This document shows positions 1-10,755 of a stretch of 64,000 nt of DNA, in pieces. The notes beneath the pieces are model-generated. The model saw only the letters and a list, made by a program, of their open reading frames with translations, did no database searches and had not been told where the DNA came from. Position numbers and translations under genes: made by a program. The stretch lies in assembly GCA_963757655.1 (NCBI GenBank), contig CAVWSQ010000005.1, positions 242,366 to 306,365 on the forward strand, written 5' to 3'. This stretch comes from an uncultured Acidobacteriota bacterium. GTDB lineage: Bacteria > Acidobacteriota > Vicinamibacteria > Vicinamibacterales > CAVVIG01. Positions within the stretch are counted from its first letter, which is position 1. Every line of letters begins with the position of its first letter.

Positions 1-577
1 GCAACAGTCGATCGAGCGGCATCGCCTCTGCGCCGGAGAACTCGATCTCCCTGCGCGATGTGTAGGCCACGGGCATGCCGAACGCCGACGCGCGCGTCGC
101 GACCGCCCGGCCGATCCGACCGACACCGACCAGGCCGAGCTGCTTGCCCCGCAGCTCGGTTCCGAGCAGGAGGTCGAGCGCCCAGCCTTTCCATTCGCCG
201 CGGCGCACCAGGCGCTCCCCCTCCGACAACCGCCTGGTGATTGCGAGAATCAAGGCCCAGGTGAAGTCGGCGACCGACTCGGTCAGCACGTCCGGGGTGT
301 TGGTGACGACGATGCCCCGCGATTTCGCGTATGGCACGTCGATGTTGTTGTAGCCGACCGCCACGTTGGCGATCGCCTTCAGGCTGGCGGCGGCGGCGAT
401 GACGCTTCGGTCGACCGCGTCGGTCAGGAGGCACACGAGCGCATCTTTGTCGGCCACGCGCGATCGCAGCTCGTCGGACGGAATCGCCGCCTCGCCGATA
501 TACAGATCGACGTCCGCGACCGCGCGCAGCTTGGAGATGACAGAGGACGGAAGTCTACGGGTGACCAGGATCTTCAT
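1..577 (-). CDS. D-isomer-specific 2-hydroxyacid dehydrogenase (glyoxylate/hydroxypyruvate reductase-like); N-terminal part only, C-terminus lies beyond the window start
   Basis: Not in the ORF track because there is no in-window stop. Manual reverse translation from ATG at 575-577 gives MKILVTRRLPSSVISKLRAVADVDLYIGEAAI... and, in the same frame, an NAD-binding motif GKQLGLVGVGRIGRAVA (about 100-150). The frame stays open to position 1. Confidence 0.8.
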   Translation of the reverse strand, partial: MKILVTRRLPSSVISKLRAVADVDLYIGEAAIPSDELRSRVADKDALVCLLTDAVDRSVIAAAASLKAIANVAVGYNNIDVPYAKSRGIVVTNTPDVLTESVADFTWALILAITRRLSEGERLVRRGEWKGWALDLLLGTELRGKQLGLVGVGRIGRAVATRASAFGMPVAYTSRREIEFSGAEAMPLDRLL

Positions 578-632
578 GGACTGGGGGACTACGCCGGCAA
601 GAAGGGCGGGATGAATGGATCGCCCATTCTCG

Positions 633-863
633 CTAGTGTCCGAGCGACTGACAAAATCCGCAGTGGGTGCACCGAACAGCCGGCTCGATGATGCACGCGC
701 CATCGTCCTCAGCGCCTCGGATGACGGGGAGACGCTGATGGCTGACATGCGCGCTGAACGCGAGCGCGGGATCGGGCGCGCGGGTGTGGCGTGGCTGATC
801 CGGCACGCCGGCGTGCCGGGCGATGGAGTCTCGAATCATCGCGCGCAGGGCTTCATCAGTCAT
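633..863 (-). CDS. Small (76 aa) BMC-locus protein: amphipathic N-terminal helix, Pro-rich linker, C-terminal Cys cluster
   Basis: ORF track 633..863. N-terminus is MTDEALRAMIRDSIARHAG. C-terminus is CIIEPAVRCTHCGFCQSLGH (C-x8-C-x2-C-x2-C). It lies 14 nt downstream of the last BMC-P gene on the same strand. Confidence 0.6.
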   Translation of the reverse strand: MTDEALRAMIRDSIARHAGVPDQPRHTRAPDPALAFSAHVSHQRLPVIRGAEDDGACIIEPAVRCTHCGFCQSLGH

Positions 864-877
864 CAGTTCATCACTCG

Positions 878-1147
878 TCAGTCGATGGTGATCGAGTCGA
901 CGATGCCGACGATCGCGGCATCGACCGGCGCGGCCTTCTTGCCGAGCGCCTCGCCCGCCGCCCGCCCTTCGAGCACGACCAACACCTTTTCGTCCACACC
1001 TGCGCCGACCCCGTCCACCGCGAGCAACGCATTGCCGCGCGGCGTCTCGTCGATGTTCAGCGGCTGCACCAGCATCAGCTTGGCGCCCTCGAACTTCCTG
1101 TTCTTCTGGGTGGCCACCACGGTGCCGATGACTCTACAGATCTGCAT
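878..1147 (-). CDS. BMC-P pentameric vertex shell protein (EutN/CcmL family), paralog 1
   Basis: MQICRVIGTVVATQKNRKFEGAKLMLVQPL...VDAAIVGIVDSI shows the typical EutN/CcmL N-terminal and C-terminal signatures. 89 aa. Confidence 0.9.
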   Translation of the reverse strand: MQICRVIGTVVATQKNRKFEGAKLMLVQPLNIDETPRGNALLAVDGVGAGVDEKVLVVLEGRAAGEALGKKAAPVDAAIVGIVDSITID

Positions 1148-1200
1148 GGCAGAAGTTCAGCACGCGAGGATGGCAGCAAGGAACGATTGAATCCTGCCCT

Positions 1201-1467
1201 TTATCCCAGGTCCCAATGATCGACGATGCCGACGATGCCGGCATCGACCGGCGGCTCGGCGGGGTAGAACGGGAAGCTGGCTTCTTTACCGCGAACGAAA
1301 AACACCTCTTCACCGACCCCCGCGCCGACAGAGTCCACCGCGACCAGCGGGCGGCCGCTGGGTTCGTGCTCGGGCGTGAGCGGCTGAACCAGCAGCAGTT
1401 TGATCCCGACGAGAGTTTCGTCCTTGCGCGTCATGACAACGTCGCCGATCACCCGCGCTAGCTGCAT
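1201..1467 (-). CDS. BMC-P pentameric vertex shell protein (EutN/CcmL family), paralog 2
   Basis: MQLARVIGDVVMTRKDETLVGIKLLLVQPL...VDAGIVGIVDHW; 88 aa. ATG verified at 1465-1467. Confidence 0.9.
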   Translation of the reverse strand: MQLARVIGDVVMTRKDETLVGIKLLLVQPLTPEHEPSGRPLVAVDSVGAGVGEEVFFVRGKEASFPFYPAEPPVDAGIVGIVDHWDLG

Positions 1468-1483
1468 GGTGCCACTGGCCTGG

Positions 1484-1753
1484 TCATTCGTTGAGGTCTA
1501 CCGTGTCGATGATGCCGACGACGGCAGCGTCGACCGGGCAGTCCTTGAGGCCGGACGCCATCCGCGCCGAGCTGCCGCTGACAACCAGCACGGTCTCTCC
1601 GACGCCAGCGTCGACGGTGTCGATTGCCACCAGATAGCTGCCTTCGGCCTTGCCGCGAGGATCGATCGGGCGGACCACCAGCAACTTGCTGCTGACGAGG
1701 CGCGGATCCTTGCGCGTGGCGACCACTGTCCCCACGATCTTCGCGAGCAGCAT
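1484..1753 (-). CDS. BMC-P pentameric vertex shell protein (EutN/CcmL family), paralog 3
   Basis: MLLAKIVGTVVATRKDPRLVSSKLLVVRPI...VDAAVVGIIDTV; 89 aa. Confidence 0.9.
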   Translation of the reverse strand: MLLAKIVGTVVATRKDPRLVSSKLLVVRPIDPRGKAEGSYLVAIDTVDAGVGETVLVVSGSSARMASGLKDCPVDAAVVGIIDTVDLNE

Positions 1754-1759
1754 CCGGCG

Positions 1760-2053
1760 CTACGCCTTTGCCGTCGTGGCTCGTCCGATCGGGAGCGCGT
1801 CTTCGAGGTTGGCGTGCGGCCGCGGAATGACGTGCACCGAGACCAACTCTCCGACGCGACGCGCCGCTGCGGCGCCGGCATCGGTGGCCGCCTTGACGGC
1901 CGCCACGTCGCCGCGCACGATGGCGGTGACGTAACCGGCGCCGATTTTTTCCCAGCCGACCAGGGTCACCTTCGCCGCCTTGACCATCGCGTCGGCCGCT
2001 TCGATCATCGCGACCAGACCCTTGGTTTCGATCATGCCTAACGCTTCACCCAT
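1760..2053 (-). CDS. BMC-H hexameric shell protein (PduA/EutM-type BMC domain)
   Basis: [60 protein letters not shown]... I trimmed the 117-aa ORF to the ATG at 2051-2053 because GAGGAG sits 6 nt upstream. The longer N-terminus is encoded by a heptamer-repeat spacer. Confidence 0.9.
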
Positions 2054-2065
2054 TACTGACTCCTC

Positions 2066-2107
2066 GTCATGGCTGATGGCTGATGGCTGATGGTCATGGT
2101 CGATGGC
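2066..2107. repeat. Tandem heptamer array (GGCTGAT-type, about 6 units) in the aldolase|BMC-H spacer
   Basis: GTCATGG CTGATGG CTGATGG CTGATGG TCATGGT CGATGGC, read directly. Confidence 0.8.
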
Positions 2108-2142
2108 GGCCATCTTCCATCGCCCTGAGCGATGAGCCCTGT

Positions 2143-3051
2143 CTAGCGCAAGCTCCGTATGGCGTCTTCGATGAGCGCCGAAAGCTCACGGTATGTTAGC
2201 CGAATTTCTCGTTCGCCATCCGCCCTCGACGCAGGCCCCGGCGAGACCTCGCCGTGGCTCGCTGAGCCGTCTCGCGCGAGCTGAGGCGGGTTGGTCTCAG
2301 CCACCTGGTTCACCAACTCTGGAATCAGACGGCGGCCGTCGCCGCTGGGCGCCCGGACAACCTGACACGACTCGTCCTGGCCGGTGTCGGCACAAATCGG
2401 CGCCGGCGCCTTGATGCCGTAGGTGCCACGCAGATCCTGCAGTCGGGTGACTTCCTCGCGCGACAGCAGGTTCTCGCGACCAAGCAGCCGCGCGACGAGA
2501 CTGATCTTCGCGAAATGCTCGATCGTCTCCATCTTGTAGTACGCCGCGAACAGGTCGGTTCCAACGGTGAGCGCACCGTGGTTTGCCAGCAGCATGCCGT
2601 CGTGCGCCCTGATGTACTGCCGCACCGCTTCGGGCAGCTCCTTGGTGGACGGCGTCGCGTATTCAGCGATCGGAATGCTGCCGAGCGTCGTCAGCACCTC
2701 CGCGAGCACGGCGCGGTCGAGCGGAATGCCGGCGACCGCGAATCCCGTCGCCGTCGGTGGATGCGCGTGCACCACGGCGTGAACGTCCGGGCGCTGGCGG
2801 TAGACCTCGAGGTGCATCAGCGTCTCGGACGAGGGATCGCGATCCCCCTGCAGCTTGCGTCCCTCGAGGTCGGTGATGCACATCATGTCGGGCGTCATGA
2901 ACCCCTTGCAGACGCTTTTCGGGGTCATGAGCAGGCGGCCGGCGTCGATCCTGACGCTGATGTTGCCGTCGTTGGAAGCGGTGTAGCCGCGCGCGTACAT
3001 CCGACGGCCCACTTCGACGATGTCGGCGCGGAGCGAGGACTCGGTGCTCAA
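2143..3051 (-). CDS. Class II aldolase/adducin-family enzyme (fuculose/rhamnulose-phosphate aldolase-like) with an approx 85-aa C-terminal extension
   Basis: Core motifs GNISVR and HAVVHAHPP. The C-terminal tail ends ...[22 protein letters not shown] (amphipathic). The start is TTG at 3049-3051, overlapping the TGA of the upstream gene (TTGA). Confidence 0.85.
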
Positions 3052-3317
3052 GCGGTCCGCGCCTGATACTTGGCGCGGCAGGCGTCGGAACAGAAGAACA
3101 GCCGCGCGCGGCCGTCGACCAGCGTCAACGCGTGGTCGGGGAGGATGAAGGTGCCACAGACGGGATCGCGCACCATCTGAACGCCGCGGGTCGGCACCTG
3201 GCCGCGGCGGCGCGGCGGACGGCCGCCGATGCCCTCGACGATGCCGTCAACGAGACGCCAGAAGGCGCGCGCGACGATGACGGCGAAGATCACGAACAGG
3301 ACGAGGCGCAGCAGCAT
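3048..3317 (-). CDS. Small membrane-anchored TRASH/YHS-type metal-binding domain protein
   Basis: N-terminal TM segment LLRLVLFVIFAVIVARAFW. C-terminal CGTF...(21 aa)...CSDAC gives C-x21-C-x3-C. ATGA overlap with the upstream TPR gene and TTGA overlap with the aldolase. Confidence 0.7.
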   Translation of the reverse strand: MLLRLVLFVIFAVIVARAFWRLVDGIVEGIGGRPPRRRGQVPTRGVQMVRDPVCGTFILPDHALTLVDGRARLFFCSDACRAKYQARTA

Positions 3318-3928
3318 CAGACACCAGGCTTACGCGCCGCGCCGGCGTGCGCGGACTGGAGACCGTCGAGCGCTCGCCTGGCGGCCTGACCTTCAGGGCT
3401 GTCGGGCGCGATGGCCAGCACCTGCTTCCACGCCGCCTCGGCGCCGTCGAGATCCTGCTTGCCGAACGCCTTGACGATGCCGACATTCAACAGCGTCTTG
3501 GCATGCTTGGGATCCAGCTTCAACGAGCGATCGAACTGCGCCAGCGCCTTGTCTGGTTGATTCGAGTAGTAGTAGGAAACCCCGAGGTCGGTACTGACGT
3601 TGACGTCGTTTGGCGCGAGCTTCAACGCGTCGCCGTACCACTTGATGGCATCGTCGTAGCGCTCGGCGTCGAAATAGAGATTCCCGAGCTCGACCCGCGG
3701 CGTCGCGTTGGAGGATTCCCGCTCGGCCACCGTCTTGAGCGCGTTGACCTGGGTCTGGTCGAGAACCGCGGCGCGCGACGTGGCGCCGGCGGTCGCTGTC
3801 GACGCCTGTGGCGCCGCCGGCTGCGCCGCCGGCGGCCTGGCGGTGGCCTGCTGCGAGCCGATGATCCAGCCGGCGATCAGGCCGAACAGGATCCCGGCGA
3901 TTCCAAAGGCGACGGCGTCGGATTTCAT
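3317..3928 (-). CDS. Membrane-anchored TPR repeat protein
   Basis: I trimmed the 326-aa ORF to the ATG at 3926-3928 (MKSDAVAFGIAGILFGLIAGWIIG...). The upstream part overlaps pdxJ in another frame. There is one TM segment, an Ala/Pro linker, then TPR-like repeats (LGNLYFDAERYDDAIKWYGDALKLAP...). Confidence 0.75.
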   Translation of the reverse strand: MKSDAVAFGIAGILFGLIAGWIIGSQQATARPPAAQPAAPQASTATAGATSRAAVLDQTQVNALKTVAERESSNATPRVELGNLYFDAERYDDAIKWYGDALKLAPNDVNVSTDLGVSYYYSNQPDKALAQFDRSLKLDPKHAKTLLNVGIVKAFGKQDLDGAEAAWKQVLAIAPDSPEGQAARRALDGLQSAHAGAARKPGV

Positions 3929-3947
3929 GGCGTCGAGATATCGCTGA

Positions 3948-4712
3948 TCATAGCGCACCGACGCTGCGGCCGCTGAGCAGCTGCAGATACTCGCCGACCA
4001 CCGTCGCCAGCCCGACATGGAGCGCGCGCGAGATGATGGCGTGGCCGATCGAGACCTCGTCGAGATACGGCAAATCGCGAAACAGCGTGAGGTTCGACAG
4101 GTCCAGGTCGTGCCCGGCGTTGACGCCGAGGCCGAGAGCGTGCGCGAGCTCTGCCGCCTGCGCGTACAACGCATAGGAGCGCACGCCCTCATCCGGGCTG
4201 CGCTCGAACGCCCGCGCGAACGGCTCGGTATACAGCTCGACGCGATCGGCGCCGGTCGAAGCCGCCCAATTGATCGGATCGGGCGACGGGTCGACAAACA
4301 GGCTGACGCGTATTCCCGCCGCGTGCAGACGCTTGACGATGTCAGGCAACGATTCGGCCTCGCGCCCGGGCTGCCATCCCGCCTGGCTCGTCACCTCACC
4401 CGGCACAACCGGCACCAGCGTGCACTGATCGGGCGCCACCTCCTCGACCAGATCCAGCAGTTCGGGGCGCGGATCGCCTTCGATGTTGTATTCGATGCGC
4501 GTCGGCCGGCCGCGCAGCGCCTGCGCGATCGCGCGGACATCGTCAGGCGTGATGTGGCGTCGATCGGCGCGCGGATGCACGGTGATCCCGGGGGCGCCAG
4601 CCCCGAGGCACACCTCGACCGCCTCGAGGACGCTCGGCTCGCGTCCGCCACGCGAGTTGCGCAGGGTCGCGACTTTGTTCACGTTCACGGAAAGGCGGGT
4701 CGTGCGGGTCAT
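3948..4712 (-). CDS. pdxJ: Pyridoxine 5'-phosphate synthase
   Basis: LSVNVNKVATLRNSRGG...GITVHPRADRRHI...; 254 aa, typical PdxJ. Confidence 0.9.
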   Translation of the reverse strand: MTRTTRLSVNVNKVATLRNSRGGREPSVLEAVEVCLGAGAPGITVHPRADRRHITPDDVRAIAQALRGRPTRIEYNIEGDPRPELLDLVEEVAPDQCTLVPVVPGEVTSQAGWQPGREAESLPDIVKRLHAAGIRVSLFVDPSPDPINWAASTGADRVELYTEPFARAFERSPDEGVRSYALYAQAAELAHALGLGVNAGHDLDLSNLTLFRDLPYLDEVSIGHAIISRALHVGLATVVGEYLQLLSGRSVGAL

Positions 4713-4736
4713 GGACGTTTGGCGTGAGCCCTGACC

Positions 4737-4764
4737 GACGAACCGCGAACGACGAAAGACGAAC
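4737..4764. repeat. Tandem heptamer array (GACGAAC CGCGAAC GACGAAA GACGAAC) in the glmM|pdxJ spacer
   Basis: Read directly; four contiguous 7-nt units. Confidence 0.8.
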
Positions 4765-4769
4765 GTCGC

Positions 4770-6113
4770 CTATCCAAGATGCTCTTTGACGACATCGACG
4801 ATTTCCTGCGCCCAGCCGCGAATCTGGTCCTGGTGCTGGCCCTCGAGCATGACGCGGAGCAGCGGCTCCGTCCCGGAGTAGCGGATCAGCAGCCGGCCCT
4901 GGCCGGCGACGCGCGCTTCGACGCGGGCGATGGCGTCGGCGACCGCCGGCACGCCCTGCAGATCCACCTTCTCTCGCACCCTGACGTTGAGCAGCACCTG
5001 CGGATATGTCGTCAGGTCGGCGGCCAGGTCGGCGAGCGTGCGGCCGGCCAGCGCCATCGTCCGCAGCACGTTCAGCGCGGTGCACAAGCCGTCGCCGGTG
5101 AAAAGGTAGTCGGAGAAGATGATGTGTCCCGACTGCTCGCCGCCAAGCGACAGGCTTCGTTTCTGCATTTCCTCCATCACGTACTTGTCCCCTACCGAAG
5201 TGCGCACCAGGTCGATGCCGAGCGGCTTCAAGGCGAGCTCGAGGCCGATGTTGCTCATGACGGTGGCGACAATCGCGTCGCCGTGCAGCCGGCCTTCCCG
5301 CTGCAGCTGCCGCCCGCACATCAGCAACACCGCGTCGCCATCGACGACCTGACCGCGATGATCGACGAAAATCGCGCGGTCACCGTCGCCGTCGAACGCG
5401 ACCCCCATGGCGCAGCCACGCGCCACCACGGTCTGGGCCAGTTGCTCGGGGTGGGTCGACCCGCAGCGCAGGTTGATGTTGCGACCGTCCGGACGGTTGC
5501 CGATGACGATCGTTTCGAAGCCGAGACTGTTGAACAGCTCGGGCGCTACTGTGGTGGTGGCACCGTTGGCGCAGTCGAGAACGATGGGAAAATGCGTGAT
5601 CCTGGACGCCTCGGGAAACACCGCGCGCAGGTGATCGAGATAGGCGTCGACGAGATCGGCGCGCGGGACGGCTCCGGCCACGCCGCCATGGGCGCTCCAC
5701 GAACCATCGGTCACGATCGCCTCGACCTCGCGCTCGATGGCTTCGGTGAACTTCTCACCTTTCCCCGAGAACACCTTGATGCCGTTGTCCTCGTACGGAT
5801 TGTGCGAAGCCGAAATGACCACGCCGGCATCGTAGGTTCCGGTGCGGGTCAGGAACGCGACCGCCGGCGTCGGCACGACACCAGCGCTGGTGACCGAGGC
5901 TCCCTCGCCACAGGCGCCGTGCGCGAGCTCCGCCTCGATCCAGGTGCCGGATTCACGGGTATCGCGGCCAATCAGGAACTGTGGCGACGCCATGCCGTGA
6001 GGGAGGGCGCGCACCAGGGCCGCTCCGAGCCGCCGCACCGTCGGCGCGTCGAGTGGAGGGCTGCCCGCGGTGCCGCGAACGCCGTCGGTGCCGAACAATC
6101 TAGCGTTTGCCAC
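4770..6113 (-). CDS. glmM: Phosphoglucosamine mutase
   Basis: FGTDGVRG N-terminus and active-site SASHNPYEDNGIK; 447 aa. GTG start at 6111-6113. Confidence 0.95.
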   Translation of the reverse strand: MANARLFGTDGVRGTAGSPPLDAPTVRRLGAALVRALPHGMASPQFLIGRDTRESGTWIEAELAHGACGEGASVTSAGVVPTPAVAFLTRTGTYDAGVVISASHNPYEDNGIKVFSGKGEKFTEAIEREVEAIVTDGSWSAHGGVAGAVPRADLVDAYLDHLRAVFPEASRITHFPIVLDCANGATTTVAPELFNSLGFETIVIGNRPDGRNINLRCGSTHPEQLAQTVVARGCAMGVAFDGDGDRAIFVDHRGQVVDGDAVLLMCGRQLQREGRLHGDAIVATVMSNIGLELALKPLGIDLVRTSVGDKYVMEEMQKRSLSLGGEQSGHIIFSDYLFTGDGLCTALNVLRTMALAGRTLADLAADLTTYPQVLLNVRVREKVDLQGVPAVADAIARVEARVAGQGRLLIRYSGTEPLLRVMLEGQHQDQIRGWAQEIVDVVKEHLG

Positions 6114-7041
6114 TGGTAATCCGTACCTGGACCGAGTCCGGCGTCACGTGCGTCACACCCGCGTCGCGCGAGGAGTCGGCGTGAACCGTCAGCGAGTACT
6201 GGCCGGGACCAAGCCCGACGAGGTCGACGAAGGCGGTGAGATCGTCCACCGCCACGCGACCGAGCGAGTCGCGATTTCCTCGCAGCGTGAGCTCCACCAC
6301 CGAGGGCACCGCTTCCGCCTGCAGGTGGGTGCCGAGGTTGCGCAAATGGACCGGCGCGTTCTGCAGCGTCCGTTCGAGCGGCGCCTCGAGGATCTGGACC
6401 GTGACCATCGCCGAGCGCGCGGCTTTCAGGCGCAGCGCCGGATCGAGCAGCCCGAGGATGGTCGACTGCTTGACCGTCGCGCGGGCGCCCGCCACTGAGA
6501 TCGGCTCGGTGACCACTTCGGTGGCGCGCTTGACCGCGCTCTCGGGCCCGATCACCTCCGCGATCCGGGGCTCGGACGACAACGAGCCCACCACGAACCC
6601 CGGCGCGGGCAGGCCATCCACCGCAGGGACGATCGGCACCTCGCGGGACGCCGACGGCTCGAAACCCATCGTCACGGCCGACGGCAGCACCTGCACGATT
6701 TCAACGCCGAAAGGCACCCGCACCTGCTCGGGGGTCAGCGGGAACAGGCGGCGTCCGGTCTGCGCGGTGTGCAGGTCGAGCACCGCGACCACGTCACCCG
6801 TCCCGACGCGGCTCAGCGTGCCCGACGCACCACGGACGCGGACGTCGACGGTTGCCGGCACGTCGCCCAGCAGCTCCAGTCCGGCCGGCACCTGCGTCAG
6901 CTCGAGCGGCACGCGCAGGCCTCGTTCAACGGTCTCCTCGCCCGATACCACCATCCACAGGAGGAGCGCCAGCCCCAGCGATAGCAGCTTCAGCCAGATG
7001 TTGCCGAACACCCAGTGGCCGACCCGCCTCGAGATCGTCAC
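6100..7041 (-). CDS. cdaR: YbbR-domain protein (CdaR-like regulator of diadenylate cyclase)
   Basis: I trimmed the 567-aa ORF. GTG at 7039-7041 overlaps the cdaA stop (GTGA). One TM segment (IWLKLLSLGLALLLWMVV) is followed by repeated YbbR-like beta-rich modules. It sits between cdaA and glmM. Confidence 0.7.
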   Translation of the reverse strand: MTISRRVGHWVFGNIWLKLLSLGLALLLWMVVSGEETVERGLRVPLELTQVPAGLELLGDVPATVDVRVRGASGTLSRVGTGDVVAVLDLHTAQTGRRLFPLTPEQVRVPFGVEIVQVLPSAVTMGFEPSASREVPIVPAVDGLPAPGFVVGSLSSEPRIAEVIGPESAVKRATEVVTEPISVAGARATVKQSTILGLLDPALRLKAARSAMVTVQILEAPLERTLQNAPVHLRNLGTHLQAEAVPSVVELTLRGNRDSLGRVAVDDLTAFVDLVGLGPGQYSLTVHADSSRDAGVTHVTPDSVQVRITSGKR

Positions 7042-7847
7042 GTGTACTGGACCTCCCGCTTCGGCGGAGTGTCGGAACGCTGCAGCACGAGCGATCGCAG
7101 CCGCGCGCGCACCTGATCGCTGTCCAGGCCACGCTCGATCTGCCCGTCCACGACGATGGACAGGCTGCCGGTCTCCTCGGAGACGACGATGGCGACCGAG
7201 TCGTTTTCTTCGGTCAGGCCAATCGCCGCACGGTGACGGGAGCCGAGCCCCTTGCTCAGCCTCGGGTTCACTGTCAGCGGCAGGAAGCAGGCGGCGGCGG
7301 CAACACGATCTTCCTGCACGATGACCGCGCCATCGTGCAGCGGTGAAGACGGCAGAAAGATGCTCTGGAGCAGATCGTAGGTGAGGATGGCATCGAGACG
7401 GATGCCGCCCTCGATGTAGTTGCGCAGGCCGATCTGGCGTTCGACGGCGATGATCGCCCCGATCCGCTGCGTCGACAGCAGGCTCGAAGCCACCACCAGC
7501 TCCTCGATCGAATCCTCGACCGAAGGCGCGTTGGCCAGGTAGCGGAAAAATGGCGCGCGTCCGAAGTGCGCGAGCGCGCGCCGGATGTCGGACTGAAACA
7601 GCACGATGAAGGCAAACACGAGGTAGCCGATCATGTTCCGGACCAGCCAGTTCACCGTCTCGAGATGAAGCCATCGCGATCCGTAGAACAGGCCGACCAT
7701 CACGCAGGCGCCGAGCGCCATCTGCACCGCGCGCGTGCCGCGAATCAACTTGAGAAGCTCGTACATCAGCACCGACACCACGAGGATGTCGGCCAGATCC
7801 CACCAGCCGATGGGAGGACGGCGCAGTAATGAAGTAAACCAGATCAT
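7038..7847 (-). CDS. cdaA: Diadenylate cyclase (c-di-AMP synthase), membrane-anchored CdaA type
   Basis: Three N-terminal TM segments plus a DAC domain (DGAVIV..., RHRAAIGLTEENDSVAIVVSEETG). 269 aa. Confidence 0.9.
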   Translation of the reverse strand: MIWFTSLLRRPPIGWWDLADILVVSVLMYELLKLIRGTRAVQMALGACVMVGLFYGSRWLHLETVNWLVRNMIGYLVFAFIVLFQSDIRRALAHFGRAPFFRYLANAPSVEDSIEELVVASSLLSTQRIGAIIAVERQIGLRNYIEGGIRLDAILTYDLLQSIFLPSSPLHDGAVIVQEDRVAAAACFLPLTVNPRLSKGLGSRHRAAIGLTEENDSVAIVVSEETGSLSIVVDGQIERGLDSDQVRARLRSLVLQRSDTPPKREVQYT

Positions 7848-7850
7848 GAA

Positions 7851-7916
7851 CAGGGCTCAGGGCTAGGCGCTCAGGGCGGGCTCTCGGAAGCTCTCAGCCC
7901 TCAGCCTTCAGCCCTG
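7851..7916. repeat. Two inverted heptamer arrays in the folP|cdaA spacer: (CAGGGCT-type x4) and (CTCAGCC-type x3), forming an imperfect long hairpin
   Basis: CAGGGCT CAGGGCT AGGCGCT CAGGGCG at 7851-7878 and CTCAGCC CTCAGCC TTCAGCC at 7893-7913. The terminal units are exact complements. The right arm overlaps the last codons and stop of folP. Confidence 0.8.
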
Positions 7917-8743
7917 CGGATCTCCTCAGCCACCCGCACCACCTGCGTCATCTCCGCCACGGCATGGACGCGGACGATGTGTGCGCCGGCCAGAACGGCG
8001 GCGGTCACGGCCGCGGCCGTGCCCCAGTCGCGCTCGGGGGCCGGCCGACCGCCGACCGCCTCGCGCAGAAACGACTTGCGCGAAGGCCCGACCAGCACGG
8101 GCCGGTCGAGCGCCGGCGCGAGCTCGGATAACCGGGCCAGCACACCATAACTGTGCCACGAGCGTTTGGCAAACCCGACGCCGGGGTCGACGATGACCTG
8201 CTCGAGCCGCACTCCTGCCTCAGTTGCGCAGCCAAGGCCGCTGCGCAACGCCTCGATCACCTCCGCCACGACATCGACGTACTCCGCCTCTGCGTACATC
8301 GTCTTCGACGAGCCGCGGCCGTGCATGAGGATCAGCGCCGCTCCGGTTTCGGCGACGGTTCGCGCCATGTCCGGATCGCGCCGCAAACCGCTGACGTCGT
8401 TGACGATTGCCGCGCCGCCGACGATGGCGGCTCGCGCGACCTCGGCCTTCGTCGTATCGATCGAGATCGGCACGGCGAGCCGTCCCTTCAAGGCGTCGAG
8501 AACGGGCAGGACACGCGAGAGTTCCTGGTCGGATGAAATCTCTTCGGCGCCCGGGCGACTGGACTCCCCCCCGACGTCGATCAGATCGGCACCGTCGGTC
8601 TGCATGTCCAACGCGGCAGCCAGGGCCTCGGCCGGATCGAGCAGCGAACGAGCGTCGGCAAACGAGTCGGGCGTGAGGTTCAGGATCCCCATGACGAGGC
8701 AGCGCTCGCCAAGCTGGAGCGCGTCTCGACCGGCGAGGGGCAC
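7901..8743 (-). CDS. folP: Dihydropteroate synthase
   Basis: [14 protein letters not shown]...[17 protein letters not shown]. The start is uncertain: I chose GTG at 8741-8743, with the ATG of MGILN about 50 nt downstream as the alternative. The 446-aa ORF N-terminus overlaps ftsH and is rejected. Confidence 0.85.
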
Positions 8744-8794
8744 GGTGTAGGAAGGGCGCGAAGAGAAGCAAGTCACAATGGGCAAATGACAATT

Positions 8795-8820
8795 GACAAA
8801 GAGAGAGTGATCTCTTTGTC
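8795..8820 (-). terminator. Perfect 10-bp hairpin in the AT-rich ftsH|folP spacer
   Basis: GACAAAGAGA-gagtga-TCTCTTTGTC. It lies 28 nt downstream of the ftsH stop on the minus strand. There is no strong U-tract, so the terminator role is tentative. Confidence 0.4.
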
Positions 8821-8847
8821 CAGTGTCACTTCCAAATTGTAAATTGC

Positions 8848-10751
<1,904 letters not shown>

Positions 10752-10755
<4 letters not shown>

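What the first reader, a model, noticed from the sequence alone, without database searches (positions are those of the whole stretch)
633..863. 76-aa BMC-locus protein combining an encapsulation-peptide-like helix with a C-x8-C-x2-C-x2-C cluster
- **N-terminus:** MTDEALRAMIRDSIARHAG has the length and amphipathic i/i+3/i+4 hydrophobic pattern of known BMC encapsulation peptides, such as the N-termini of PduP/PduD.
- **Linker:** it is followed by a Pro-rich stretch (VPDQPRHTRAPDP).
- **C-terminus:** CIIEPAVRCTHCGFCQSLGH has four Cys plus a terminal His, with spacing suggestive of an Fe-S or metal site.
- **Interpretation:** a tiny lumen-targeted redox or metal module would be a candidate electron or cofactor shuttle for the compartment. 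I do not recognise it as a described BMC component.
Basis: inference. Interest (0 to 1): 0.7.

Follow-up and report, generated by a model that had tools for sequence, protein, structure and literature searches.

The report
Small Cys-rich ACI microcompartment cargo protein
This is a real, strongly conserved 76-residue gene at the end of an Acidobacteria-type bacterial microcompartment operon, pairing a targeting-type helix with a four-cysteine tail that probably binds a metal; the 2021 microcompartment catalogue already noted it, but nobody has characterised it.

Summary
The ORF at 633..863 (- strand) exists as described. One correction: the cysteine spacing is C-x7-C-x2-C-x2-C, not x8. It is a genuine gene. 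More than 4,700 protein clusters match it, 3rd-codon positions vary far more than 1st and 2nd, and the start codon is conserved. In all 91 related loci it sits directly after the third BMC-P gene of an "ACI"-type microcompartment operon (aldolase, BMC-H, 3x BMC-P, this gene, usually a 2-hydroxyacid dehydrogenase).

The architecture is conserved:
- an N-terminal helix in register with the key residues of the PduP encapsulation peptide;
- a linker of 0-81 residues rich in Ala/Pro/Gly/Ser;
- a tail in which the four Cys are invariant and Glu-Pro, Gly and the C-terminal Gly-His nearly so, with no indels.

No Pfam, NCBIfam, PDB-sequence or Foldseek match exists.

The claim that the protein is undescribed is wrong: Sutter et al. 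[quoted passage not shown] The metal (Fe-S or Zn) and the role (redox carrier, adaptor or chaperone) remain untested. Verdict: already known as a feature, function open, moderate interest.

The parts
633..863 (-). Complete ORF (76 codons plus stop) of the small ACI-BMC protein with an encapsulation peptide (EP) and a Cys tail
   Evidence: translation; homologues; purifying selection; conserved position after BMC-P3.
810..857 (-). Residues 3-18 (DEALRAMIRDSIARHA): predicted N-terminal helix, the putative encapsulation peptide
   Evidence: AlphaFold2 predicts a helix at 3-18 with block pLDDT 93-94. R11 is invariant, R7 is unchanged wherever the residue is present, and L6, L/M9, V/I10, I/V14, A15, R16 and H17 are conserved. 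These are in register with the PduP EP residues L6, L9, I10, I13, L14 and R11 (PMC4594438 and PMC12339742). The hydrophobic moment is not significant.
765..809 (-). Residues 19-33 (GVPDQPRHTRAPDPA): variable Pro/Ala-rich linker
Evidence: Across the family the linker is 0-81 residues long (median 21), with A 23%, P 16%, G 11% and S 10%. Some members carry tandem low-complexity repeats.
696..764 (-). Residues 34-56 (LAFSAHVSHQRLPVIRGAEDDGA): conserved middle block with an H-x-S-H motif and an acidic G-x-D-x-D-G turn
   Evidence: H39, S41 and G55 are invariant in the 150-sequence alignment A3. In the most divergent set only S41 stays at 90% or more. AlphaFold2 predicts a short helix at 32-38.
636..695 (-). 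Residues 57-76 (CIIEPAVRCTHCGFCQSLGH): C-terminal Cys4 module, C-x7-C-x2-C-x2-C-x4-H-COOH, the putative metal site
   Evidence: C57, C65, C68, C71 and G75 are invariant. E60, P61, V63, G69 and H76 are at 90% or more even among representatives that are 36-63% identical. 378 of 389 members have identical spacing and distance to the C-terminus. There is no Pfam, PDB or Foldseek match.
878..1147 (-). BMC-P (EutN/CcmL) paralogue 3, immediately upstream of the small gene
   Evidence: Pfam PF03319, E=3.9e-30. There is a 14-nt gap to the small ORF here. In many relatives the two genes overlap by 8 nt (ATGACTGA).
1201..1467 (-). BMC-P paralogue 2
   Evidence: Pfam PF03319, E=1.2e-28.
1484..1753 (-). 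BMC-P paralogue 1
   Evidence: Pfam PF03319, E=5e-32.
1760..2113 (-). BMC-H shell hexamer gene (longest ORF; the real start is probably M21 at 2053, giving 97 aa as in relatives)
   Evidence: Pfam PF00936, E=2.6e-30. Relatives are called at 96-98 aa.
2143..3051 (-). Class II aldolase with a C-terminal extension ending in the [23 protein letters not shown] (2146..2208)
   Evidence: Pfam PF00596, E=4.7e-51. The tail is conserved in 83 loci. Its hydrophobic moment is 0.64, p about 0.002.
2..577 (-). 2-hydroxyacid dehydrogenase (glyoxylate/hydroxypyruvate-reductase-like), cut by the window start; last gene of the ACI main locus
   Evidence: Pfam PF00389 and PF02826, NCBIfam glyoxylate reductase. 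It is followed by nth and PPIase genes in relatives. It is absent in about 7 related loci, where the small gene is kept.

Best explanation
The ORF encodes the small cargo protein of an ACI-type (Acidobacteria) bacterial microcompartment.

Shown:
- It is a translated, purifying-selected gene.
- It is invariably the gene after the BMC-P triplet, and is often translationally coupled to it.
- Its architecture is conserved: N-terminal helix, variable linker, C-terminal Cys4 module.

Inferred:
- The helix (residues 3-18) acts as an encapsulation peptide. It would tether the protein to the shell or to the cargo condensate through its L6 / M9-I10 / I14 face and R11. The same register is functionally important in the PduP encapsulation peptide.
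- The Pro/Ala-rich linker is a flexible tether.
- The last 20 residues fold around one metal centre ligated by C57, C65, C68 and C71, with the invariably C-terminal Gly-His close by.

Most likely, but not shown:
- The centre is an iron-sulfur cluster. The C-x-x-C-G-x-C triad with an invariant Gly is the classic ferredoxin signature, and a fourth Cys a few residues upstream is enough to build a [4Fe-4S] site in designed ferredoxin peptides (my recollection of that literature, not checked here). The protein would then be a minimal redox module inside the compartment lumen.
- A structural Zn(Cys)4 site is the main alternative.

My estimates: about 0.75 that it is an encapsulated metal-binding protein. 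Within that, roughly 0.45 Fe-S, 0.35 Zn and 0.2 other metal or thiol chemistry.
For: - Locus identity. It matches the published ACI description.
- Gene reality.
- Fixed position after BMC-P3: all 84 loci examined, 80 of them species-level genomes. The two most divergent members examined, one of them from a marine metagenome, also keep it.
- Translational coupling: 8-nt overlap with the BMC-P3 stop in many loci.
- Helix: predicted with pLDDT about 94.
- Register match to experimentally important PduP EP residues: L6, L9, I10, I13 and L14, and the E7-R11 salt bridge (PMC4594438 and PMC12339742), set against column composition.
- Linker variability.
- Cys module: four invariant Cys with indel-free spacing and a conserved C-terminus.
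- Retention: the small gene is kept where the neighbouring dehydrogenase is lost.
- Literature: the catalogue authors independently called it an EP-bearing, Cys-containing protein and proposed a metal theme for the locus.
Against: - The hydrophobic moment of the helix is not above shuffled controls.
- An HMM of the aldolase EP from the same loci does not detect the helix (E=36).
- The helix is much more sequence-conserved than typical EPs, which could mean a specific partner other than the shell.
- No ferredoxin Pfam model matches: Fer4_2 hits 2 of 150 members at E=0.61. The classic fourth 'C-P' ligand is absent.
- The only PDB sequence resemblance, itself not significant (E=0.88), is to the structural-zinc lobe of a medium-chain alcohol dehydrogenase, which points to Zn.
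- AlphaFold2 confidence for the Cys module is only 61-77, and Foldseek finds nothing.
- The cultured Vicinamibacteria I know of are aerobes (my own knowledge), which is unfavourable for an exposed cluster.
- PduS/PduT partners are only occasional in ACI genomes.
- Synteny in this clade is so strong, housekeeping genes included, that co-location alone is weak functional evidence.
- There is no direct expression evidence for this ORF.
Confidence: 0.6

Rival explanations
1. It is a zinc-stabilised adaptor or assembly factor rather than a redox protein. The Cys4 module would be a structural Zn knuckle that binds another cargo element, while the N-terminal helix joins the EP bundle or the shell. 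Candidate partners are the conserved two-Cys segment in the aldolase tail and the ~50-aa domain that follows the EP of the satellite aldehyde dehydrogenase. The protein would then cross-link cargo during assembly, in analogy to CcmN.
For: - There is a weak local resemblance of I-E-P-x-V-x-C-x-H-C-x-x-C to the structural-Zn lobe of an MDR alcohol dehydrogenase (5vm2).
- The aldolase tail carries its own conserved two-Cys element.
- The gene is co-translated with shell vertex proteins.
- EPs drive multivalent cargo condensation (PMC12339742).
- The host lifestyle is aerobic (my own knowledge).
- The N-terminal helix is unusually sequence-conserved.
Against: - The resemblance to the ADH lobe is not significant (E=0.88), and the Cys order is reversed (C-x7-C-x2-C-x2-C versus C-x2-C-x2-C-x7-C).
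- No partner interaction has been tested.
- No second copy of the module lies within +-10 kb in 91 loci.
- A monovalent EP protein is a poor cross-linker unless it oligomerises.
Confidence: 0.25
2. It is a lumenal metallochaperone or metal buffer. It would deliver or hold the divalent metal needed by the encapsulated class II aldolase. This would fit a locus-wide metal-handling theme that also includes the membrane-anchored YHS/TRASH-like protein encoded just upstream of the aldolase.
For: - The aldolase keeps the metal-binding His motifs (HAH at residue 95, NHG at residue 157). Class II aldolases are metal-dependent (established knowledge of the FucA family).
- A TRASH-like C-x21-C-x3-C protein is conserved in at least 70 of 92 loci and overlaps the aldolase start.
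- The catalogue notes a metal theme.
Against: - Chaperones normally use exposed, exchangeable sites (for example M-x-C-x-x-C), not four invariant, tightly spaced Cys typical of a permanent site.
- Nothing links the TRASH-like protein, which is membrane-anchored and so outside the shell, to the lumen.
- The idea is entirely inferential.
Confidence: 0.08
3. It is a precursor of a ribosomally synthesised, post-translationally modified Cys-rich peptide. In that reading the conserved N-terminal helix is a leader and the C-terminal 20 residues are the core. Its position in the BMC operon would be coincidental synteny.
For: The layout (conserved leader-like helix, variable spacer, invariant Cys-rich C-terminal core ending at a fixed residue) resembles RiPP precursors. 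Synteny in this clade extends to unrelated housekeeping genes.
Against: - No modifying enzyme, protease or exporter lies in or next to the operon. The only radical-SAM gene nearby sits beside a QueC gene and so looks like a queuosine-pathway gene, QueE by my reading.
- The gene overlaps the BMC-P stop codon.
- It keeps this position in divergent, including marine, lineages.
Confidence: 0.02

Closest known systems
[quoted passage not shown] 2021, Nat Commun 12:3809, Supplementary Data 2)
   Same: Same locus type: class II aldolase with a C-terminal EP, BMC-H, BMC-P triplet, 2-hydroxyacid dehydrogenase, Acidobacteria. Same size, same N-terminal EP, and the same Cys-containing C-terminal domain. 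I consider it the same family.
   Different: The catalogue mentions three conserved Cys. Here four are invariant across 36-88% identity, with a fixed C-x7-C-x2-C-x2-C-x4-H-COOH layout. The catalogue gives no motif, name, structure or function.
Encapsulation peptides of PduP and PduD (Salmonella Pdu microcompartment)
   Same: Terminal helix of about 16-18 residues followed by a poorly conserved linker. Hydrophobic residues at positions 6, 9, 10 and 14 and Arg at 11 coincide with the PduP positions shown by mutagenesis to matter (PMC4594438, PMC12339742).
   Different: Position 7 is Arg rather than Glu and position 13 is Ser or Ala. The hydrophobic moment is unremarkable. The cargo is a 43-residue mini-domain rather than an enzyme. 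Targeting is untested.
Bacterial [4Fe-4S] ferredoxin motif C-x2-C-x2-C-x3-C-P (Pfam Fer4 families) and designed 16-residue 'ferredoxin maquette' peptides (recalled from the literature)
   Same: A C-x-x-C-G-x-C triad with an invariant Gly after the second Cys, preceded by a short hydrophobic stretch. A fourth Cys lies close in sequence, as in the maquettes.
   Different: There is no downstream C-P ligand; the fourth Cys is 7 residues upstream. No Fer4 HMM matches. Cluster binding is unproven.
Structural-zinc lobe of medium-chain (MDR) alcohol, threonine and sorbitol dehydrogenases, for example PDB 5vm2
   Same: Local sequence I-E-P-x-V-x-C-x-H-C-x-x-C and a Cys4 site built from a C-x2-C-x2-C triad plus one Cys seven residues away.
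   Different: The seven-residue spacer is on the opposite side of the triad. The match is not significant (E=0.88). There is no dehydrogenase domain.
BMC-associated Fe-S components PduS and PduT, and other catalogue entries with BMC-specific 4xCys extensions (MIC6 oxidoreductase tail, GRM6 BMC-H tail)
   Same: They are redox or metal sites associated with microcompartments. PduS/PduT pairs occur occasionally in ACI genomes.
   Different: PduS is a large flavo-Fe-S enzyme and PduT a shell protein. This is a free 76-residue cargo protein. No sequence relationship was detected or could be tested for the MIC6 and GRM6 tails.
CcmN (beta-carboxysome adaptor with a C-terminal EP)
   Same: A non-enzymatic protein whose EP links cargo to the shell through a linker of highly variable length.
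   Different: CcmN has a large hexapeptide-repeat domain and a C-terminal EP. There is no Cys motif and no homology.

Membership tests
ACI-type BMC main locus (Sutter et al. 2021) | Class II aldolase (pfam00596) with a C-terminal encapsulation peptide | tested here: met
   PF00596, E=4.7e-51. The 302-aa protein has an approximately 90-aa tail ending in [21 protein letters not shown], with hydrophobic moment 0.64, p about 0.002.
ACI-type BMC main locus (Sutter et al. 2021) | Triplet of adjacent BMC-P genes plus at least one BMC-H | tested here: met
   Three PF03319 ORFs at 878-1753 and one PF00936 ORF at 1760-2113.
ACI-type BMC main locus (Sutter et al. 2021) | 2-hydroxyacid dehydrogenase (pfam00389/02826) in the locus | tested here: met
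   ORF 2..577 matches PF00389 and PF02826. It is truncated by the window edge.
ACI-type BMC main locus (Sutter et al. 2021) | Found in Acidobacteria (subdivisions 4 and 6) | tested here: met
   The closest homologue (88%) and nearly all of the 80 genome loci are labelled Vicinamibacterales, Vicinamibacteria or Acidobacteriota.
ACI-type BMC main locus (Sutter et al. 2021) | Aldehyde dehydrogenase located on a satellite locus, not in the main locus | tested here: inconclusive
   The 64-kb window has no ALDH signature and no further shell genes. This is consistent with a satellite locus, but the satellite itself was not seen.
ACI small EP/Cys protein | About 80 aa, encoded in the ACI main locus | tested here: met
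   76 aa, directly downstream of BMC-P3, as in all 84 loci examined.
ACI small EP/Cys protein | Conserved cysteines in the C-terminal domain | tested here: met
   Four invariant Cys (the catalogue says three).
Encapsulation peptide (definition of Kinney et al. and Aussignargues et al., PMC4594438) | Short (15-20 aa) segment at a protein terminus, predicted alpha-helical | tested here: met
   AlphaFold2 predicts a helix at residues 3-18 with pLDDT about 94 in two independent runs.
Encapsulation peptide (definition of Kinney et al. and Aussignargues et al., PMC4594438) | Amphipathic | tested here: inconclusive
   There is a conserved hydrophobic stripe at positions 6, 9, 10 and 14, but the hydrophobic moment is not above shuffles (p 0.27-0.73).
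Encapsulation peptide (definition of Kinney et al. and Aussignargues et al., PMC4594438) | Separated from the functional domain by a poorly conserved linker | tested here: met
   The linker is 0-81 aa with no sequence conservation, is rich in A/P/G/S, and has low pLDDT.
Encapsulation peptide (definition of Kinney et al. and Aussignargues et al., PMC4594438) | Sufficient to target cargo into shells | not testable with these tools
   This needs a reporter-fusion experiment with ACI shell proteins.
4Fe-4S ferredoxin (Pfam Fer4 clan) | C-x2-C-x2-C-x3-C-P motif recognised by Fer4 HMMs | tested here: not met
   Only the C-x2-C-G-x-C triad is present. The window protein has 0 Pfam hits at E<=10. Fer4_2 is hit by 2 of 150 members at E=0.61.
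MDR dehydrogenase structural-zinc lobe | C-x2-C-x2-C-x7-C loop within an ADH_N domain | tested here: not met
   The spacing is reversed, there is no ADH domain, and the PDB profile match has E=0.88.
RiPP precursor peptide | Adjacent maturation enzymes, protease or exporter | tested here: not met
   Neighbours are shell proteins, an aldolase, a dehydrogenase and housekeeping genes.

The most novel reading that the evidence does not exclude
The protein is a minimal, EP-tethered iron-sulfur (or other redox-active metal) carrier that works inside the lumen of an aerobic soil bacterium's metabolosome. It would be a new class of BMC cargo: the smallest known natural ferredoxin-like module, with cluster ligands confined to the last 20 residues. 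It could provide an electron outlet independent of the usual alcohol-dehydrogenase NAD+ recycling. Alternatively it could pair with the two-Cys tail of the aldolase.
Probability: 0.3. Interest if true: 0.7.

Novelty: already known. Interest (0 to 1): 0.35.

Why it matters
ACI microcompartments occur in a large share of soil Acidobacteria, which can make up a major part of soil communities. Their substrate and chemistry are unknown. By my reading, only three ACI proteins appear to carry an encapsulation peptide: the aldolase and this protein (seen here) and the satellite aldehyde dehydrogenase (reported in the catalogue). This protein is therefore a cheap, tractable entry point. Knowing whether 76 residues bind Fe-S or Zn, and what they touch, would show whether ACI chemistry involves electron transfer. 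It would also provide a very small, naturally targeted metal module for engineered compartments. None of this is new as an observation, because the catalogue flagged it in 2021. What this analysis adds:
- the exact invariant motif;
- the size of the family (more than 4,700 clusters);
- translational coupling to BMC-P;
- retention of the gene where the dehydrogenase is lost.

Tried and rejected
- Family searches. Pfam and NCBIfam on the protein, and Pfam on 150 family members, gave no family, only scattered chance hits.
- PDB sequence profile search. It gave two non-significant hits (E about 0.8-0.9). One, to the MDR ADH zinc lobe, is kept as a lead only.
- Structure. AlphaFold2 was run twice, with 32 and 150 sequences. 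Foldseek against the PDB gave zero matches.
- Shared EP origin. An HMM of the aldolase EPs does not detect the small protein's helix (E=36), so there is no evidence the two EPs share a sequence origin.
- Hydrophobic moment as an EP test. It is not discriminating.
- Second copy or fusion of the Cys module. None was found in the window or within +-10 kb in 91 loci. Longer database hits are frameshifts, chimeras, wrong starts or long repetitive linkers.
- Aldehyde dehydrogenase in the window. None was found, so homology between this protein and the ~50-aa tail domain of the ACI AldDh could not be tested.
- Expression. No run holds this genome. A soil metatranscriptome has contigs from relatives over the aldolase, BMC-H and BMC-P genes. 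The small ORF is poorly covered in RNA and DNA runs alike because its linker diverges, so the result is inconclusive.
- Literature after 2021. No paper characterising ACI compartments was found in the library.
- Rejected readings. Spurious ORF (rejected by conservation and codon statistics). Internal start at M9 (rejected by conservation of residues 2-8 and of the upstream start codon). RiPP precursor (no maturation genes).
Full report
**1. What is in the sequence**

The - strand ORF 633..863 translates to MTDEALRAMIRDSIARHAGVPDQPRHTRAPDPALAFSAHVSHQRLPVIRGAEDDGACIIEPAVRCTHCGFCQSLGH, 76 residues.

The only factual slip is the cysteine spacing. Seven residues (IIEPAVR) separate the first two Cys. 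The motif is therefore C57-x7-C65-x2-C68-x2-C71, followed by four residues and the C-terminal His76.

**2. Surroundings**

Reading the - strand in the direction of transcription, the genes are:
- a membrane-anchored TPR protein (about 3320..3928);
- an 89-aa protein with one transmembrane helix and a weak YHS/TRASH-like C-x21-C-x3-C motif (3048..3317);
- a class II aldolase with a long C-terminal extension (2143..3051);
- one BMC-H (1760..2113; it probably starts at 2053);
- three BMC-P paralogues (1484..1753, 1201..1467, 878..1147);
- the small ORF, 14 nt after the last BMC-P stop;
- a glyoxylate/hydroxypyruvate-reductase-like 2-hydroxyacid dehydrogenase, cut by the window edge (2..577).

There are no further shell genes, no second copy of the small protein's domain, and no aldehyde dehydrogenase signature elsewhere in the 64 kb.

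**3. Is it a real gene?**

Yes.
- A single-sequence search found 182 homologues at 62-88% identity, named only 'hypothetical protein' from Vicinamibacterales and Acidobacteria.
- An exhaustive profile search found 256 representatives at 50% clustering.
- A profile of divergent members recovered at least 4,752 clusters at 90% identity.
- In 86 loci, nucleotide entropy at third codon positions is 1.5 (helix block) and 1.1 (Cys block), against 0.4-0.6 at positions 1 and 2. Uncorrected pN/pS is 0.41 and 0.24.
- An ATG or GTG is found in 84 of the 87 loci examined, 5-9 residues (5 in 64 of them) upstream of the conserved Leu-Arg of the helix. Residues 2-8 are conserved too: R7 is unchanged wherever present, and position 3 is always D or E. 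The protein therefore starts at M1, not at the internal M9 that many automatic calls used.
- In many relatives the start overlaps the BMC-P3 stop by 8 nt (ATGACTGA), which indicates translational coupling.

**4. Context conservation**

- In all 84 loci examined first (80 species-level genomes and 4 metagenome contigs), the order is aldolase, BMC-H, BMC-P x3, small gene. A 2-hydroxyacid dehydrogenase usually follows.
- In about 7 loci the dehydrogenase is missing and endonuclease III follows the small gene directly. The small gene is retained in those loci.
- Gene calls with Pfam labels show that the operon ends there.
- The two most divergent members examined, one of them from a marine metagenome, keep the BMC-H, BMC-P x3, small gene context, and one also shows the dehydrogenase.
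- A caveat: synteny in this clade also covers unrelated housekeeping genes (FtsH, FolP, DAC, YbbR, GlmM, PdxJ). Co-location alone is therefore weaker evidence than the overlap with BMC-P3.

**5. Anatomy of the family**

- Residues 1-18. The consensus is M-T-[ED]-Q-E-L-R-A-[LM]-[VI]-R-[DE]-A-I-A-R-H. R11 is invariant and R7 is unchanged wherever present. AlphaFold2 predicts a helix at 3-18 with pLDDT about 94, with both 32 and 150 sequences.
- Linker. It is 0-81 residues long (median 21), rich in A/P/G/S, not conserved, and sometimes made of tandem low-complexity repeats.
- Middle block. It contains an H-x-S-H motif and an acidic G-x-D-x-D-G turn.
- C-terminal module. The pattern is C-[ILV]-[IV]-E-P-x-V-x-C-x-H-C-G-[FY]-C-x-S-x-G-H. 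Among representatives only 36-63% identical to the window protein, C57, C65, C68, C71 and G75 are invariant. E60, P61, V63, G69 and H76 are at 90% or more.
- Of 389 members, 378 have exactly this spacing and exactly five residues after the last Cys. 342 have exactly four Cys in the whole protein, and 307 of 321 end in Gly-His.

**6. Is the helix an encapsulation peptide?**

The published definition is a 15-20-residue predicted amphipathic helix at a terminus, separated from the functional domain by a poorly conserved linker (PMC4594438).

- Terminal position, helix and linker are met.
- Amphipathicity is equivocal. The conserved hydrophobic positions 6, 9, 10 and 14 form a stripe. However, the hydrophobic moment is not above shuffled controls. 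In contrast, the aldolase EP of the same operon scores 0.64 (p about 0.002).
- An HMM of the aldolase EPs does not detect the small protein.
- On the positive side, L6, [LM]9, [IV]10, [AS]13 and I14 together with R11 are in exact register with the PduP residues L6, L9, I10, I13, L14 and R11. Mutagenesis showed those residues matter for encapsulation and EP self-association (PMC4594438 and PMC12339742).

I therefore accept 'EP-like targeting helix' as the best reading, and note that it has not been tested.

**7. What does the Cys module bind?**

No Pfam, NCBIfam, PDB-sequence or Foldseek relationship exists.

Two resemblances are worth recording as leads:
- C-x-x-C-G-x-C with an invariant Gly is the core of ferredoxin [4Fe-4S] motifs. 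Designed 16-residue peptides with an extra nearby Cys assemble such clusters (recalled, not tested here).
- The stretch I-E-P-x-V-x-C-x-H-C-x-x-C resembles the structural-zinc lobe of MDR alcohol dehydrogenases (PDB 5vm2, E=0.88, not significant). The seven-residue spacer is on the opposite side of the triad.

Fe-S and Zn(Cys)4 therefore both remain open. I lean slightly towards Fe-S. The AlphaFold2 confidence of this part (61-77) is too low to help, and no coordinates were available.

**8. What is known**

The locus matches the ACI type of the BMC catalogue point by point (Sutter et al. 2021, PMC8217296).

[quoted passage not shown] The finding is therefore a rediscovery of a described but uncharacterised component. 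I found no later paper on ACI compartments.

**9. Mechanism, with its status**

- Shown: it is a conserved, translated last or penultimate gene of the ACI shell operon.
- Inferred: it is EP-mediated lumenal cargo tethered by a flexible linker, and its four Cys ligate one metal centre at the extreme C-terminus.
- Speculative: an Fe-S redox module (about 0.3 overall), a Zn-stabilised adaptor that binds other cargo tails (about 0.25), or a metallochaperone for the metal-dependent aldolase (under 0.1).
- Essentially excluded: a RiPP precursor or a spurious ORF.

**10. Verdict**

Novelty is 'already known'. Interest is moderate (0.35), because the function is still open and is easy to test.

Noticed in passing
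window 3048..3317 (- strand): This is an 89-aa protein with an N-terminal transmembrane helix and a C-x21-C-x3-C motif. Pfam matches are weak: YHS, DUF7576 and zf-FCS, E 0.03-0.16. Its stop overlaps the aldolase start. It is conserved upstream of the aldolase in at least 70 of 92 related loci, so the operon seems to include a membrane-anchored TRASH-like metal-binding protein.
   Followed up: partly
window 2347..2409 (- strand), aldolase residues 215-235: The aldolase C-terminal extension contains a conserved two-Cys element (A-P-A-P-I-C, then 8-33 residues, then C-Q-V-V-x-A-P) between the catalytic domain and the linker and EP. A strict pattern finds it in at least 65 of 83 loci. It could be a partner or co-ligand for the small Cys protein.
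   Followed up: partly
window 1760..2113 (- strand): The longest BMC-H ORF is 117 aa, but relatives are called at 96-98 aa. The real start is probably the Met at 2053 ([12 protein letters not shown]...).
   Followed up: partly
L028, L029, L044, L047, L054, L064, L080 (downstream of the small gene): In these related loci the 2-hydroxyacid dehydrogenase is absent, and endonuclease III follows the small gene directly. In L035 and L048 about 2.7 kb is inserted between the small gene and the dehydrogenase, and in L039 about 0.9 kb. The dehydrogenase is thus a dispensable part of the locus, while the small protein is not.
   Followed up: partly
L058 9869..10249: The small gene is split into two frames, with the N-terminal and C-terminal halves in different ORFs. 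This is either an assembly error or a pseudogene.
   Followed up: no
L032, L063, L080 (record titles): Contigs with the typical Vicinamibacterales ACI synteny are labelled Betaproteobacteria, Bifidobacterium or Bifidobacteriaceae MAGs. This is most likely mis-binning rather than horizontal transfer.
   Followed up: no
window about 3320..10755 (- strand) and L001, L085, L087, L088: The block FtsH, FolP (Pterin_bind), DAC, YbbR, GlmM, PdxJ and TPR protein upstream of the ACI operon is syntenic across Vicinamibacteria. The TPR, TRASH-like and aldolase genes overlap by 1-4 nt, so the TPR protein may belong to the same transcript.
   Followed up: partly
window 1..3400, run X20: A soil metatranscriptome contains contigs 85-99% similar to the aldolase, BMC-H and BMC-P genes. 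ACI operons of close relatives therefore appear to be transcribed in soil. The run may also contain DNA, and the small ORF itself is barely covered.
   Followed up: partly
P0139, P0162, P0239, P0257 (family members): Some homologues have linkers of 50-80 residues made of tandem repeats (for example DPGRDPGVNT or SADLQVGxVR). This shows that linker length is essentially unconstrained.
   Followed up: no
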